From IMG/VR virus record IMGVR_UViG_3300031460_000087, positions 1 to 36,708 of that record: DNA of 36,708 nt. The stretch is one strand, 5' to 3'. The notes beneath the pieces are model-generated. The model made no database searches. It was not told the origin of the DNA and was given only the letters and a program-made list of their open reading frames with translations. Positions 337 through 33,208 of this stretch are shown piece after piece. Positions within the stretch are counted from its first letter, which is position 1. Each line of letters opens with the position of its first letter. The translations under genes and the position numbers were made by a program. Origin of the DNA: a virus (lineage: Duplodnaviria > Caudoviricetes).

Positions 337-385
337 TATACTGAGCGGGCCGCCGAGACGTTGGAGCGTCAAGGCAGCCCTAACC
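334..385 (+). promoter_or_regulatory. Extended -10 promoter (TGaTATACT) followed by a structured leader/ncRNA element, copy 1
   Basis: TGATATACT at 334-342, then CGGGCCGCC-gaGACGttggagCGTCaa-GGCAGCCCTAACC at 346-385. A related copy lies at 18082-18122. Confidence 0.55.
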
Positions 386-614
386 GCACGCCATGCCCGC
401 CGTTGCGGGTGTCGCCAGGGTCGAGGAAGACGACACCACCCTGTTCAAGGGCAGCTTGAATCTGATGGAGTGTGGTAGCTTTGATACCAGGTATGCCATC
501 CTGCTGTTCGGCACGGCTGATGGTTGCGTAGTGAACGCTGGACGTATCGGCCAGACGCTGCGAGGACCAGCCTAAGAGGGCGCGGGCTGCCCGGATTTGC
601 GATCCGGTGATCAT
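369..614 (-). CDS. XRE-family helix-turn-helix transcriptional regulator
   Basis: MITGSQIRAARALLGWS...TISRAE...IQAALEQGGVVF...GGHGVRL is the typical alphaproteobacterial XRE pattern. ATG at 614 is preferred over the ORF-track start at 701. Divergent from the RAMP-like operon. Confidence 0.9.
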   Translation of the reverse strand: MITGSQIRAARALLGWSSQRLADTSSVHYATISRAEQQDGIPGIKATTLHQIQAALEQGGVVFLDPGDTRNGGHGVRLGLP

Positions 615-650
615 GTAAGCGACTGGTTGACTATCTTGAACATGGCTTTT

Positions 651-709
651 CGTAGCACGACTGGCGAATTTGAGCATGGAAACAGGCTCCTCAAGCAGCA
701 CGTGCTACG
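651..709. promoter_or_regulatory. Inverted repeat in the divergent XRE/RAMP intergenic region (possible operator or hairpin)
   Basis: CGTAGCACG (651-659) and its exact reverse complement CGTGCTACG (701-709), with an inner TTGAG/CTCAA pair. Confidence 0.4.
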
Positions 710-767
710 TTTTATCGAAAAAATGTGTTGCAGCATAACTTGAAAGGGGATTAGATAGCAATCCTGC

Positions 768-834
768 GGTGCCGCAGCGTTTAGCTTTACGTGGCTGCAC
801 ATCGCTTAGCGGCGTATCGCCAAGCCAAGCAAGG
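768..834 (+). repeat. 5-nt-periodic [NRY-NN]n array 1 (putative guide ncRNA)
   Basis: ggt-gc cgc-ag cgt-tt agc-tt tac-gt ggc-tg cac-at cgc-tt agc-gg cgt-at cgc-ca agc-ca agc-aa gg. All 13 trimers are N-purine-pyrimidine; ends in CAAGG. Confidence 0.85.
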
Positions 835-840
835 ATCGCC

Positions 841-1428
841 ATGAAAATCGCTATCGCATCCCTCAGGAGCATCAGCCCCTACAGCCAGTCCAGATTTCAC
901 GACACGCCGCTGCTCAACGACGGCAAGGAAGGCAAAGACGATCACGAGATGAGGACCTGGGCGGAACGCCTGCACGTCACCGAGGACGGGCACGTTTTCA
1001 TTCCGCCGATGTGCTTCAAGAAGTCGATCGAGACGGCGGCCCGGTTTCTCGGGCAGCAGATCAAGGGGCGCGGCAAAGCGACCTACACCAAGCATTTCAA
1101 GGCCGGCATCCTGGTCACCGACGCCCTGGTCCTTCCGGACAAAAAGAAGGACGTGCCCGGCGAGGTCTACTTCGTCCCGGCCGACGGCAAGAGCGGCGGC
1201 AGGGTCAAGCGCAAGTTCCCGGTCATCCGTGAATGGTCCGGCAACGTCACCTTCTACATCCTGGACGAAATCATCAGCCAGGACGTGTTCACCGCACACC
1301 TCAAGGAGGCAGGAAACTTCATCGGAATTGGTCGCTTTCGCCCTGAAAACGGCGGCTTCTATGGTCGGTTCGCGGTCGATCGCGTGGACTGGCAGGAAGC
1401 TTCCGTCGATATGGCAATGGCGGCTTAG
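841..1428 (+). CDS. Solitary RAMP/Cas7-like RNA-binding protein (195 aa)
   Basis: N-terminal strand ending S-P-Y; VFIPPMCFKKSIETAA resembles the RAMP IPGSSLKGxxR motif; C-terminal glycine-rich loop GIGRFRPENGGFYGRF. ATG at 841 follows AAGGA. Confidence 0.7.
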   Translation: MKIAIASLRSISPYSQSRFHDTPLLNDGKEGKDDHEMRTWAERLHVTEDGHVFIPPMCFKKSIETAARFLGQQIKGRGKATYTKHFKAGILVTDALVLPDKKKDVPGEVYFVPADGKSGGRVKRKFPVIREWSGNVTFYILDEIISQDVFTAHLKEAGNFIGIGRFRPENGGFYGRFAVDRVDWQEASVDMAMAA

Positions 1429-1429
1429 C

Positions 1430-1511
1430 TGTCGCGCTTCGCGCTGCTTAGCGGGTTATCATTCCGCACCGCGCTGCACCGCACCTTCGCGTATTGCGCA
1501 GCAAATCAAGG
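1430..1511 (+). repeat. 5-nt-periodic array 2 (putative guide ncRNA)
   Basis: tgt-cg cgc-tt cgc-gc tgc-tt agc-gg gtt-at cat-tc cgc-ac cgc-gc tgc-ac cgc-ac ctt-cg cgt-at tgc-gc agc-aa atc-aa gg. 13 of the first 15 trimers are NRY and all end in a pyrimidine. Confidence 0.85.
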
Positions 1512-1569
1512 TTCTTTCCGATGAACAACAGTAATCCAAAGGTTCTTTCCGATGAACAACAGTAATCCA
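1508..1569 (+). repeat. Exact 31-bp tandem duplication spanning the array end, RBS and start codon
   Basis: AAGGTTCTTTCCGATGAACAACAGTAATCCA at 1508-1538 and 1539-1569. Confidence 0.95.
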
Positions 1570-2052
1570 TCCAAGCCTTCCTTCGAAATGAGCATCGACA
1601 CCCGAGCCGTTTACGACCGCTTGAAGGAAGTGGCCATCGGCGAACTCATCAGCTTTCGCAGCTTGTCAGAACTGCTCGGGCGGCCCGTCGAGGGGTCCAC
1701 GTCTAACCTTCAGACCGCCTTGCGCCGGCTGGAAGGCGAGGGTTGGGCCTTCGCCAATGTCCCTAAGAGCGGGTATTGGCGGCTGAGCGATATCGAGATC
1801 GTCCAGACTGCCGAGCAGGCCCGCGAGAGCATGCGCCGCAAGGCCAAGCGGGTTGTGAAGAAGCTGACCTGTGTTCAGGACTTCGAAAGGCTCCCCAACG
1901 ACATGAAGGTGAAGCACAACGCGGCGGTGAGTGGCTTCGGCGCCATTGCCGCGATGATGTCGCCTTCGAAGATGAAGGTCCTGGAAGCGAGCGTCGAGAA
2001 GGCGCAACAGCAGTTGCCTCTGGCAAAGACGCTGGAGGCGTTCAGGGTTTAG
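1552..2052 (+). CDS. Hypothetical protein with winged-helix-like N-terminus and basic helical C-terminus; partner of the RAMP-like gene
   Basis: GELISFRSLSELLG...LQTALRRLE...FANVPKSGYWRL fits a wHTH helix/wing pattern. It sits between arrays 2 and 3. Confidence 0.7.
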   Translation: MNNSNPSKPSFEMSIDTRAVYDRLKEVAIGELISFRSLSELLGRPVEGSTSNLQTALRRLEGEGWAFANVPKSGYWRLSDIEIVQTAEQARESMRRKAKRVVKKLTCVQDFERLPNDMKVKHNAAVSGFGAIAAMMSPSKMKVLEASVEKAQQQLPLAKTLEAFRV

Positions 2053-2074
2053 GTAACTTTCATTCCAAGGCCAA

Positions 2075-2186
2075 TGTTCCGTATCGTACCGCGTGTCAGC
2101 GCAACTCTCGTTGAAACTCCGTATCGCTTGGCTGCGCTTCTCAGCACGTCGTGGAGCTTCATAACGCTCTGCATAGCAACTCAAGG
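2075..2186 (+). repeat. 5-nt-periodic array 3 (putative guide ncRNA, possibly two sub-units)
   Basis: 21 units over 2075-2179 (17 NRY, all ending in a pyrimidine), then ctc-aa-gg. An internal cgc-aa-ctc at 2100-2107 mimics the terminus. Confidence 0.85.
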
Positions 2187-2287
2187 CATCGACTTTCTTT
2201 AGGTGGTTTCCCACCGCTTCGTAGTGCAAAGTCTAACCGTACCACGCGCCGCCCTGCCAAGTGAGCCAACTCAAGGCATAGACTTTC
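2177..2287 (+). repeat. 21-nt direct repeat pair delimiting array units, 90-nt period
   Basis: CAACTCAAGGCATCGACTTTC (2177-2197) and CAACTCAAGGCATAGACTTTC (2267-2287), one mismatch. Confidence 0.9.
2205..2276 (+). repeat. 5-nt-periodic array 4 (putative guide ncRNA)
   Basis: cgc-tt cgt-ag tgc-aa agt-ct aac-cg tac-ca cgc-gc cgc-cc tgc-ca agt-ga gcc-aa ctc-aa gg. All 10 trimers over 2215-2264 are NRY. Confidence 0.85.
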
Positions 2288-2354
2288 GCATCTCCGCTTC
2301 TCGGAGCTTCGCAGCGCGGCACTCCACTCCGCATCACATCGCAAGACTCGGCGG
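2285..2354 (+). repeat. 5-nt-periodic array 5 (putative guide ncRNA)
   Basis: ttc-gc atc-tc cgc-tt ctc-gg agc-tt cgc-ag cgc-gg cac-tc cac-tc cgc-at cac-at cgc-aa gac-tc ggc-gg. 11 of 12 trimers over 2295-2354 are NRY. Confidence 0.85.
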
Positions 2355-18739: not shown

Positions 18740-19717
18740 ATGAGGACTATTGAAATGAAATCTCCAAAGTCAGAGACGGTCACTGTTACCCCGCGCATGG
18801 CCGAGAATTGGCTTGCGACCTCGGTTTACGAAAGGCAGCGCAAGAGGTCGGAATGGCATGTGAAGCGCCTCACGCTGGAAATCGAGAAGGACCGCTTTCT
18901 CCTCGGGACGCAAATTCACTTCGGCGTGCTCAATGGAAAACCGAAGTTGGTGAATGGCCAACACACATTGGCGGCCATCGCGCAAAGCGGGAAGGCGATC
19001 AGGTTGACGGTCCTCTCGACGCCCGTTGAGAGCGAGGATGAACTCGGGCAACTGTACGGGCGCCATGATCGGCACAAAGGGCGGACACCGAGCGACGCCT
19101 TTCTGGGTATGGCGATGGCCGATAAGCTTGAACTGCACACCCAAGAAGTGAACGCTTTTGCGCCAGGGTTGCGGTGGGTGCTGAACAACTTTCGGCACCC
19201 GAAGGCCTCCGGTGACATCGAGATCGCAACGTCGCTCGACTATCTCGCGCATGAAATGGAAGGATGGGCGCCGGTCGCCAGGCAGTATTTTGGGCTCGTG
19301 AGGGAGGCCAACACCGGCTTGAAAGGGTCCTATCGTCGGATGCCTGTCGTTGCTGTTGGGCTCGCTACTGTGAAACATCAGCCGTTAAAGGCGCGGGATT
19401 TCTGGCTTGGTGCTGCGAATGATGACTCTCTCACCAAACACGACCCTCGCCACATGCTGAACGCCTTCCTTCGAAAAAAGACGAACTCAAAAGGCGACCC
19501 GCTGACCTATATGCGGACCGTTGCCGCATGTTGGAACAGGTTCTTCGAGAACGGCGAACTTCAGGTCCTACGCCCGTCCGGTTTGGGCAAAATTGGTATC
19601 ACTTTGAAGGGGACGCCGTTCAAGACAGTCGACAGGTTCGATGGTCGAGAGGATGAGGATGAAGCGCCGACTTTTGGCACTGCCGTTCAGGGAGTGTTTA
19701 CCGAGGCGAGGCCTTGA
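18740..19717 (+). CDS. ParB-like / DGQHR-related domain protein
   Basis: TVTP-x-MA-x-x-WL...QR...LVNGQHTLAAI pattern. Start 18740 or 18755. Confidence 0.65.
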   Translation: MRTIEMKSPKSETVTVTPRMAENWLATSVYERQRKRSEWHVKRLTLEIEKDRFLLGTQIHFGVLNGKPKLVNGQHTLAAIAQSGKAIRLTVLSTPVESEDELGQLYGRHDRHKGRTPSDAFLGMAMADKLELHTQEVNAFAPGLRWVLNNFRHPKASGDIEIATSLDYLAHEMEGWAPVARQYFGLVREANTGLKGSYRRMPVVAVGLATVKHQPLKARDFWLGAANDDSLTKHDPRHMLNAFLRKKTNSKGDPLTYMRTVAACWNRFFENGELQVLRPSGLGKIGITLKGTPFKTVDRFDGREDEDEAPTFGTAVQGVFTEARP

Positions 19718-20373
19718 TCGTGGTTGCGGAGATCGTAGCGCCGTTCAGCTACTCATCCGTGGCCATTGAGGCGGCGGATGAGCTTAAGGCGGTTGCTTCC
19801 CGTATCAAGCAGCGTCATCGGACGCATGTCGAGGCGGCCATCGGGACGGGTCGTGATCTCATCCGCGCCAAGGAGCTTTTAGGTCACGGCAGCTTTCTTC
19901 CCTGGCTGGAGGCGGAGTTTAGGTGGACCGAGCGTACCGCCCGGACCTACATGGCTATATCGGAATGCTTCGACGGCAAATCGGAAATAATTGCCGATTT
20001 GGGGATTGTGACAGCATCGTTGCTGGCCGCGAAATCTACCCCAACCGAGGCGCGTGATTTAGTTGTCAGCCGTCTTGCGGCCGGCGAGCGACTCGACCCC
20101 TCCGAGATCAAGCATATCGTCCAGGATGCCAAACCTGAGCGAAAGCATGGGAAAGCTACAGGTGCGGTCTCCAACCTTCAGCGCAAGCGAATGAAGGAAT
20201 GGGAACGTGAAAACGAAGAGCGCGAGCTTCGCGTGCGAGACGGGCGCGCTCGCGCGCTCGCTAAGCAGGCGGCAGAGATCATCATAGCTATGCTTGGGGA
20301 CCGAGTGGACGATGTTGCAGCACTTTTGCGAGATGCTGACATGAACCATTTCCGATCGTTGATCGTCCAGTGA
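19714..20373 (+). CDS. DUF3102-domain protein
   Basis: G-x-x-L-x-x-AKELLGHG-x-F-x-x-WL-x-x-EF-x-W-x-x-RTA-x-x-YM motif. Confidence 0.8.
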   Translation: MIVVAEIVAPFSYSSVAIEAADELKAVASRIKQRHRTHVEAAIGTGRDLIRAKELLGHGSFLPWLEAEFRWTERTARTYMAISECFDGKSEIIADLGIVTASLLAAKSTPTEARDLVVSRLAAGERLDPSEIKHIVQDAKPERKHGKATGAVSNLQRKRMKEWERENEERELRVRDGRARALAKQAAEIIIAMLGDRVDDVAALLRDADMNHFRSLIVQ

Positions 20374-32206: not shown

Positions 32207-33208
32207 ATGTCGGTCCAGACCGAAGCCGACTTCCTCACTGCCGGGATCGCCTTGCTTCAACGGCGGCTCGTCCTTATCACGGCCCCGCCCGTTCCAGCGA
32301 AGAAGCGCGTCCCCATCGCCTTTCCTGGCGTCAACATCGCCAGCGCCGAATTCGCGTCCGACAAGCTGCCCGGCACGATGGGACAGACCTACCTCTATCC
32401 CGACGATTGGGTGATCACGCCCTGGGCCGCGAAGGGCATCAAGCTCATCCGCATCCCGTTCCTGATCGAGCGCGTCCAGCCTCAGAACCATGGTGAGTTT
32501 TCCGCTCCCGATATCGCGGCGCTGGATCGCATCGTGGCGACGGCGGCGAGTGCCGGGCTGACGGTCGTGCTCGACGCCCACAATTACGGGCAGCGCGCCG
32601 GGGCCAAGATGGACGTCGGGGACGCCCCCAACTTCTGGTGGCGGATGGCAACGCGCTACCGCGACGCCCCCCACGTCATGTTCGGCATTATGAACGAGCC
32701 CTCGGCCTGGTCTCCGGTCGACTGGCAGGTGACGCTGCGCAAGTGCGTCGCCGGGATCCGGGTCACGGGCGCGAAACAGACCATCATGGCGCCCGGCGCC
32801 GGCTGGAACGGGGGGCACGACTTCGTCGCGGGCGGCAATGCCGCCGCGTTCAACGGCTTCACCGATCCGAATTTCATGATCGAGGTTCACCAATACCTCG
32901 ATGGGGACAACTCCGGCTCGCACCTGCAAGAGTACGTCGCCGGCAAGGGAGCGACGGTGCTGGCCGACGTCACCACATGGGCGCGATCCAAGGGCTTCAA
33001 GCTGTTCCTGGGGGAGTTCGGCTTCGCCATGCCGGCCGGACAGATTGAAGCGACAGCGATGCTACAGTTCATGACGAACAACAGCGACGTGTGGACCGCC
33101 TATGCTGTCTGGGCGGCCGGCCAATGGTGGGGCGACTATGCGTTCAGCGTCGAGCCTGGCGTGACCGATAGGCCGCATCTGGCGGTCTTGCAGAGCTTCA
33201 TGGGCTGA
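32207..33208 (+). CDS. Glycoside hydrolase family 5 endoglucanase (cellulase-like)
   Basis: GVN-x-x-x-AEF, IRIPF-x-x-ERVQP, VLDAHNYG, FGIMNEP (acid/base Glu), EVHQYLD, FLGEFG (nucleophile Glu), WAAG-x-WW motifs. Confidence 0.93.
   Translation: MSVQTEADFLTAGIALLQRRLVLITAPPVPAKKRVPIAFPGVNIASAEFASDKLPGTMGQTYLYPDDWVITPWAAKGIKLIRIPFLIERVQPQNHGEFSAPDIAALDRIVATAASAGLTVVLDAHNYGQRAGAKMDVGDAPNFWWRMATRYRDAPHVMFGIMNEPSAWSPVDWQVTLRKCVAGIRVTGAKQTIMAPGAGWNGGHDFVAGGNAAAFNGFTDPNFMIEVHQYLDGDNSGSHLQEYVAGKGATVLADVTTWARSKGFKLFLGEFGFAMPAGQIEATAMLQFMTNNSDVWTAYAVWAAGQWWGDYAFSVEPGVTDRPHLAVLQSFMG

What the first reader, a model, noticed from the sequence alone, without database searches (positions are those of the whole stretch)
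1430..1504. Array 2 dinucleotides decode to a serine resolvase/recombinase motif (VVAVDMPNANR)
Seen in sequence: the NN series is cg,tt,gc,tt,gg,at,tc,ac,gc,ac,ac,cg,at,gc. Reverse-complemented it reads GC,AT,CG,GT,GT,GC,GT,GA,AT,CC,AA,GC,AA,CG, giving A[IM]RVVAV[DE][IM]P[NK]A[NK]R. Established knowledge: resolvase-family serine recombinases contain a GVxFVAxDxPxANR(L) segment just before the long helix E. Inference: the same decoding rule and orientation as array 5 gives a second conserved mobile-element gene, which independently supports a gapped code and suggests targeting of a rival integrative element or satellite. The forward reading (R[FL]A[FL]G[IM]STATTR) is less recognisable.
Basis: partly seen in the sequence, partly recalled or inferred. 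Interest (0 to 1): 0.88.

Follow-up and report, generated by a model that had tools for sequence, protein, structure and literature searches.

The report
Phage VIPR guide against satellite resolvase
A phage carries a five-base repeat array beside a CRISPR-like RAMP gene; ten of its fourteen variable dinucleotides spell, skipping every third base, a conserved stretch of resolvase genes of small mobile elements, so it is likely a guide RNA of the recently described VIPR system that would silence a rival element.

Summary
In detail: 14 in-phase 5-nt units at 1433-1502 carry exactly the reported NN series. They follow the stop of a 195-aa gene predicted to fold as a Cas7/Csm3-like RAMP and homologous to SUSP1-type Vipr, so this is a VIPR locus (vipr, vap, five or six guides) with a CGY-dominated instead of GGY scaffold. 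Read with the published one-base-skip rule, the ten 5' units match serine resolvase genes exactly: 8 of 9 exact core hits in IMG/VR and GTDB are in frame at one homologous site, and all 8 lie in small mobile elements. The four tail-side units (A-I-R-V) do not match: the full pattern has no exact hit in three collections, and the best score is 24 of 28. Two sister guides confirm rule and orientation: array 5 hits terminase genes (11 of 11), array 1 hits the regulator gene next to vipr in rival VIPR loci (2 of 3). The true target element was not found and nothing was tested in cells. VIPR, non-GGY scaffolds and silencing of a satellite's serine recombinase are already in preprints. Verdict: real, correctly decoded, new member of a known kind.

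The parts
1433..1482 (+). Array 2, ten 5' units whose NN match resolvase codons V-A-V-D-M-P-N-A-N-R (20 of 20 bases)
1483..1502 (+). Array 2, four tail-side units (decode A-I-R-V) that match 3-4 of 8 bases in known resolvases; unexplained
1503..1512 (+). short tail aaATCaaGG, like the ends of arrays 1, 3 and 4; no stable fold predicted
841..1428 (+). vipr gene, 195 aa RAMP-fold protein with G-rich loop
1588..2052 (+). vap-like accessory gene (154 aa); family found in 67 of 74 related loci
1508..1569 (+). exact 31-nt tandem duplication that includes the end of the array 2 tail; single copy in a second study
766..830 (+). Array 1, upstream guide; 11 units match the HTH regulator gene beside vipr in other VIPR loci
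2068..2267 (+). Arrays 3a, 3b and 4 in one 5-nt phase; targets not resolved (3a not scanned in a collection)
2288..2342 (+). Array 5, guide matching a terminase large subunit motif
369..701 (-). own HTH regulator ORF, divergent from vipr; differs at the site read by array 1 (start codon uncertain)

Best explanation
Array 2 lies in a phage VIPR locus and ten of its variable dinucleotides match, with every third base skipped, the coding strand of small serine-resolvase genes of mobile elements, so it likely encodes a guide RNA that would direct the Vipr protein to bind and silence that gene in a rival satellite-like element. Shown here: the array, the RAMP-fold prediction and homology to SUSP1-type Vipr, the matches, their frame and their context. 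Taken from the SUSP1 papers and inferred for this locus: the array is transcribed on the + strand, one Vipr subunit binds each 5-nt unit and flips out the xGY bases, the NN pair with target DNA skipping the wobble base, and the bound filament blocks transcription without cutting, helped by Vap. Inferred outcome: the rival cannot use its recombinase, and downstream packaging genes may be silenced too, during this phage's infection.
For: P0001 model pLDDT 95; best PDB matches Cas7/Csm3, Foldseek E 4e-9 and VIA Z 11.5, rmsd 2.9, 151 aligned; HHalign probability 97.4 to the Moogle protein, whose residues carry the SUSP1 Vipr numbering (K82, R138, D177, W178, R179) and which is flanked by GGY arrays. 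9-unit core in IMG/VR: 3 of 3 hits are PF00239 and all 3 extend to the unscanned next unit. 10-unit core in GTDB: 5 of 6 resolvases, 1 FtsK; about 1 chance hit expected by uniform base composition (my arithmetic). The 8 resolvases are 49-76% identical and vary at the skipped base in 9 of 10 codons. All 8 lie beside terminase (4), tyrosine integrase (4) or primase (3) genes. In the family of G003, 3 of 150 other genomes match 11 units with up to 2 mismatches, all resolvase-like, reversed control 0. Same rule and orientation: array 5, 11 of 11 hits in frame in a terminase motif, 5 extending to 22 of 22; array 1, 2 of 3 hits beside vipr and vap homologs, both extending by two unscanned units. A strain variant keeps vipr and vap but has other letters in place of array 2. 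Related resolvase pieces covering the motif occur in two other rock metagenomes. No self match in the window: 19 of 28, shuffles up to 21.
Against: No exact 28-base hit in GTDB or JGI metagenomes, none for the 11-unit pattern in IMG/VR, none at 25 of 28 or better in 401 alphaproteobacterial genomes. Best is 23 of 28 in DNA and 24 of 28 by protein among 270 resolvase-search hits. The four misses are next to the tail, where SUSP1 Vipr engages DNA first, and fit the family's columns no better than chance (14.5% of random 4-unit words do as well). With 2 mismatches on the 10-unit core, 5 hits besides the centre genome against 9 control hits in 301 genomes; 1 of the 5 is a resolvase. The core was chosen after the full pattern failed. 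No other guide among 213 further arrays reached more than the shuffle level against these resolvases. Four of the 8 elements also carry a tyrosine integrase, so the resolvase need not be the excision enzyme.
Confidence: 0.7

Rival explanations
1. It is a vrRNA derived from the resolvase gene but now chimeric or decayed: the four tail-side units come from an older guide or have drifted, and the guide binds weakly or not at all.
For: Sharp boundary: 20 of 20 then 3-4 of 8. Engagement starts at the tail side in SUSP1 structures. Several scaffold triplets are degenerate (GTT, CAT, CTT). The region is swapped in a strain variant.
Against: Array 1 also misses next to its tail while matching 11 units; SUSP1 vrRNA4 is credited with a six-unit footprint on its recombinase target; drift would scatter mismatches.
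Confidence: 0.17
2. It is a functional vrRNA whose real target is an unsampled, unrelated sequence; the resolvase match is chance.
For: The core was picked after the fact; chance hits of this length exist (FtsK; single unrelated hits for other 18-base patterns); no enrichment at 2 mismatches class-wide.
Against: 8 of 9 exact hits fall on one homologous site of one mobile-element family, whereas three other 18-base patterns gave 1, 4 and 1 hits with no convergence on a family; 3 versus 0 in the family of G003.
Confidence: 0.1
3. The tract is a degenerate simple repeat or an RNA structure element with no guide role.
For: No transcript was observed here.
Against: Such arrays flank Vipr homologs in many related loci with near-random NN; two sister arrays decode to specific targets; folding is no better than shuffles (z -0.2).
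Confidence: 0.03

Closest known systems
VIPR system of phage SUSP1 / P. fulva prophage, type II (10.64898/2026.04.26.720920; whole main text read)
   Same: Phage-borne vipr plus vap pair, one guide upstream and more downstream, 5-nt units, one-base skip on the wobble position, targets in rival mobile elements and in other VIPR loci.
   Different: Scaffold is mostly CGY and degenerate, not GGY; a guide sits between vipr and vap; tail is about 10-20 nt with no predicted stable fold; Vipr is distant (22% identity) with R165 and F126 where SUSP1 has D177 and R138.
SUSP1 vrRNA4 against the F5 satellite recombinase (10.64898/2026.10.15.759431; parts 1-3 of 8 and passages read)
   Same: A guide aimed at codon positions 1-2 of a satellite's serine recombinase gene.
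   Different: There a six-codon site near the catalytic serine of the excision enzyme, tested in cells; here ten codons before helix E of a small (about 220 aa) resolvase whose role in its element is unknown, and untested.
Non-canonical VIPR arrays (YNNNG and others in .720920; GAC, CAC, WGT, TGH in 10.64898/2026.10.21.760802, passages read)
   Same: Fixed or semi-fixed trinucleotide other than GGY beside a Vipr-like fold.
   Different: In the passages I saw no natural targets are decoded for such arrays; here three are. Supplementary target tables could not be seen.
Class 1 CRISPR Cas7/Csm3 backbone
   Same: RAMP fold.
   Different: No CRISPR array or cas genes among the 32 ORFs scanned; pairing is gapped.

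Membership tests
VIPR | Stand-alone RAMP-fold protein with G-loop, outside a CRISPR-cas context | tested here: met
VIPR | Homology to described Vipr proteins | tested here: met
   HHalign 97.4 to the Moogle protein with SUSP1 residue numbering; SUSP1 itself not fetched
VIPR | Pentanucleotide arrays, conserved trinucleotide (GGY or related consensus) alternating with variable NN, then a tail | tested here: met
   fits the YNNNG variant named in the paper's methods, not strict GGY
VIPR | One-base-skip code with skip on the wobble position | tested here: met
   three guides give in-frame hits; other skips were compared only on loci found with the one-base rule, which is circular
VIPR | vap accessory gene | tested here: met
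   family in 67 of 74 loci; its profile hits the gene after vipr in Moogle at E 6.5e-7
VIPR | vrRNA expressed and bound by Vipr; silencing of the target | not testable with these tools
   needs experiments
VIPR type II | Clade in the published Vipr tree and structured (pseudoknot) tail | tested here: inconclusive
   gene order and vap resemble type II; tail shows no stable fold; type reference set not available
Serine resolvase PF00239 (target) | Pfam match above cut-off with the site in frame | tested here: met
   3 IMG/VR hits scanned; the 5 GTDB hits judged by sequence and alignment; relatives Gin and gamma-delta resolvase
Phage satellite (target element) | Integrated element that depends on this phage for packaging | tested here: inconclusive
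   terminase, primase or integrase neighbours; element ends and helper dependence not determined

The most novel reading that the evidence does not exclude
Array 2 is a snapshot of guide acquisition in a Vipr clade that has given up reading the first scaffold base: ten new units copied from a resolvase gene were written onto four old units beside the tail, whole guides being swapped while vipr and vap stay. That would expose how vrRNAs are made, and show that tail-side pairing is dispensable in this clade.
Probability: 0.15. Interest if true: 0.7.

Novelty: new member of a known kind. Interest (0 to 1): 0.38.

Why it matters
It extends decoded natural VIPR targets beyond GGY systems: one likely alphaproteobacterial phage aims guides at a mobile-element resolvase, a terminase and a rival VIPR regulator while sparing its own copy. 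It gives a ready test of whether the one-base-skip code and tail-first engagement hold for a CGY scaffold, and a strain pair with a swapped guide for the open question of guide acquisition. The system, scaffold variants and recombinase targeting are already in preprints, so surprise is limited.

Tried and rejected
Full 14-unit pattern: 0 hits. Tail-side 9-unit pattern: 1 hit, not a resolvase. R-constrained pattern in metagenomes: 0. Idea that the variable first scaffold base pairs with the skipped base: rejected; for array 1 it is complementary in 2-3 of 10 positions. Shifted register and skips 0, 2, 3 score 13-16 of 20 against 20 of 20, but on loci chosen with the one-base rule. Arrays 3b and 4: 4 and 1 hits without convergence. 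Guides of related loci against these resolvases or the window: shuffle level. Hammerhead or other Rfam RNA in 300-2950: no match. Pfam for Vipr and Vap: none; PHROG 4652 of unknown function for Vipr. No RNA holder listed. No resolvase piece laid in the possible source run, which can be a false blank. Earlier findings: none. Papers with both 'VIPR' and 'resolvase' since 2025: 8, none of the 7 listed on this system by title or abstract. Five locus rows (L014, L027, L031, L047, L054) were dropped from alignment A1.

Full report
Setting. The window is a virus record of myophage structural genes: Mu-F head protein, DUF2213 protease, sheath DUF3383, baseplate J, lysis enzyme. Between the head gene and the protease lies a 2.5-kb insert: an HTH ORF (369-701, minus), array 1, a 195-aa gene (841-1428), array 2, a 154-aa gene (1588-2052) and arrays 3-5 in one 5-nt phase. 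The only named organism among the 120 listed relatives of the 195-aa protein is Mesorhizobium at 73%, and the runs that hold the DNA are rock metagenomes, so an alphaproteobacterial host is likely but not shown.

Observation. The tract has G at unit position 4 in 11 of 14 and a pyrimidine at position 5 in 14 of 14; 0 of 300 approximate shuffles of the window hold such a tract. It begins four bases after the stop codon and ends in a tail shared with other arrays.

The protein. Pfam knows neither gene. AlphaFold2 on 73 sequences gives pLDDT 95. Foldseek's best PDB matches are type VII Cas7 and Csm3 (E 4e-9); VIA-align agrees (Z 11.5, rmsd 2.9, 151 residues). tblastn finds weak matches in 128 phage records, mostly Escherichia and Salmonella phages. 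The Moogle protein among them aligns with probability 97.4, has GGY arrays on both sides and has K82, R138, D177, W178 and R179 at the numbers given for SUSP1 Vipr. P0001 keeps the aromatic and arginine of the G-loop (F166, R167) but has R165 for D177 and F126 for R138; the counterpart of H17 is unresolved. The second gene's family is present in 67 of 74 related viral loci, and its profile reaches the gene after vipr in Moogle. This is a VIPR locus.

Scaffold. Over 88 window units (tails included) the three scaffold positions are C 50%, G 66%, pyrimidine 97% (the finder scores the last two positions, not the first). Of 74 related loci, 41 could be scored; the commonest first scaffold base is G in 21, C in 15 and A in 5, and 40 of the 41 have arginine at the D177 position. 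That fits relaxed reading of the first base (inference). The type paper names YNNNG variants, and another preprint reports GAC, CAC, WGT and TGH repeats.

Target of array 2. The full pattern has no exact hit in GTDB or JGI metagenomes; 11 units have none in IMG/VR. Nine units give 3 hits in IMG/VR, all PF00239 resolvases in frame, all continuing into the next predicted unit. Ten units give 6 hits in GTDB: 5 resolvases and 1 FtsK, with about one chance hit expected. The 8 resolvases are 49-76% identical and differ at the skipped base in 9 of 10 codons. The site lies just before the long helix, aligned with Gin and gamma-delta resolvase (the helix E label is from my own knowledge). Neighbours are terminases in 4, tyrosine integrases in 4 and primases in 3 of the 8. 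In 150 further genomes of the family of G003 there are 3 near matches, all resolvase-like by sequence, against 0 for the reversed control. Pieces of such resolvases cover the motif in two other rock metagenomes.

Against. Every resolvase found reads G-V/I-D/E/N-F before the core, giving 23 of 28; the best among 270 protein hits is 24 of 28, and F stands in 138 of 144 representatives where the guide spells V. These scores pass the 80% cut the VIPR paper uses, narrowly. No site reaches 25 of 28 in 401 alphaproteobacterial genomes. At 2 mismatches the core is no commoner than its control, 5 against 9. The four tail-side units fit the family no better than chance (p about 0.15), and SUSP1 structures show engagement from the tail side. 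The actual target element was not found.

Independent checks of the rule. Array 5: 11 of 11 exact hits in IMG/VR are in frame in the same motif, 5 extend to an eleventh unit, and 5 of the 11 are close kin; the two scanned are terminase large subunits. Array 1: 2 of 3 hits are in an HTH gene divergent from vipr in other VIPR loci, 22 of 26 with 11 units perfect; the window's own homolog differs there. Arrays 3b and 4 gave scattered hits. A strain variant about 93% alike keeps both genes but has 99 other letters for 1428-1570 and 62 for 2054-2174, as expected of exchangeable guides.

Mechanism. By the SUSP1 model, Vipr coats the RNA one subunit per unit, the NN pair with one DNA strand skipping a base, and transcription is blocked. 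Here the paired strand is the coding strand and the skip is the wobble base, so synonymous change would not free the target. Expression, binding and silencing are inferred. The resolvase's job in its element is open, since half of the elements also have a tyrosine integrase; in L076 and L078 a terminase lies downstream on the same strand and could be silenced as well.

What is known. Read: 10.64898/2026.04.26.720920 whole main text.720927 parts 1-2 of 6; 10.64898/2026.10.15.759431 parts 1-3 of 8 and passages; 10.64898/2026.10.21.760802 passages. The third shows SUSP1 VIPR silencing a satellite's serine recombinase and guides aimed at other VIPR loci. Searches listed no paper on this locus or on resolvase-directed guides with a CGY scaffold.

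Verdict. Real, correctly decoded for ten of fourteen units, and a new member of a known kind. Interest 0.38.

Noticed in passing
window 766-830; L109 2907-3263 and L111 2907-3260 (minus): Array 1 matches the HTH regulator next to vipr in two other VIPR loci (22 of 26) and L001 less well (19 of 26), sparing the window's own copy: a likely anti-rival-VIPR guide.
   Followed up: yes
window 2288-2342; L086-L096: Array 5 matches a terminase large subunit motif in 11 of 11 exact hits; the phage's own terminase is outside the contig, so self-targeting is unchecked.
   Followed up: partly
window 1428-1570 and 2054-2174, run X3: A close strain carries different letters in place of arrays 2 and 3 while vipr, vap and array 1 are kept.
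   Followed up: partly
window 1508-1569: 31-nt duplication, supported by doubled depth in run X1, single copy in run X2.
   Followed up: partly
L020, L027; L066, L072: In some AT-rich relatives the variable dinucleotide is shifted by one base, giving a GTY scaffold rather than xGY.
   Followed up: no
L059, L065: Very long arrays (L065 up to 39 units in one tract; L059 217 units in four tracts, with a CAC scaffold and Q at the D177 position).
   Followed up: no
L085 (OQ594955.1, 4403-5475): Pseudomonas prophage LESphi2 carries a vipr-like and vap-like pair annotated as hypothetical proteins.
   Followed up: partly
window 19714-20373: A DUF3102 gene sits among the tail genes.
   Followed up: no
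window 32207-33208: Glycosyl hydrolase family 5 gene near the lysis genes.
   Followed up: no
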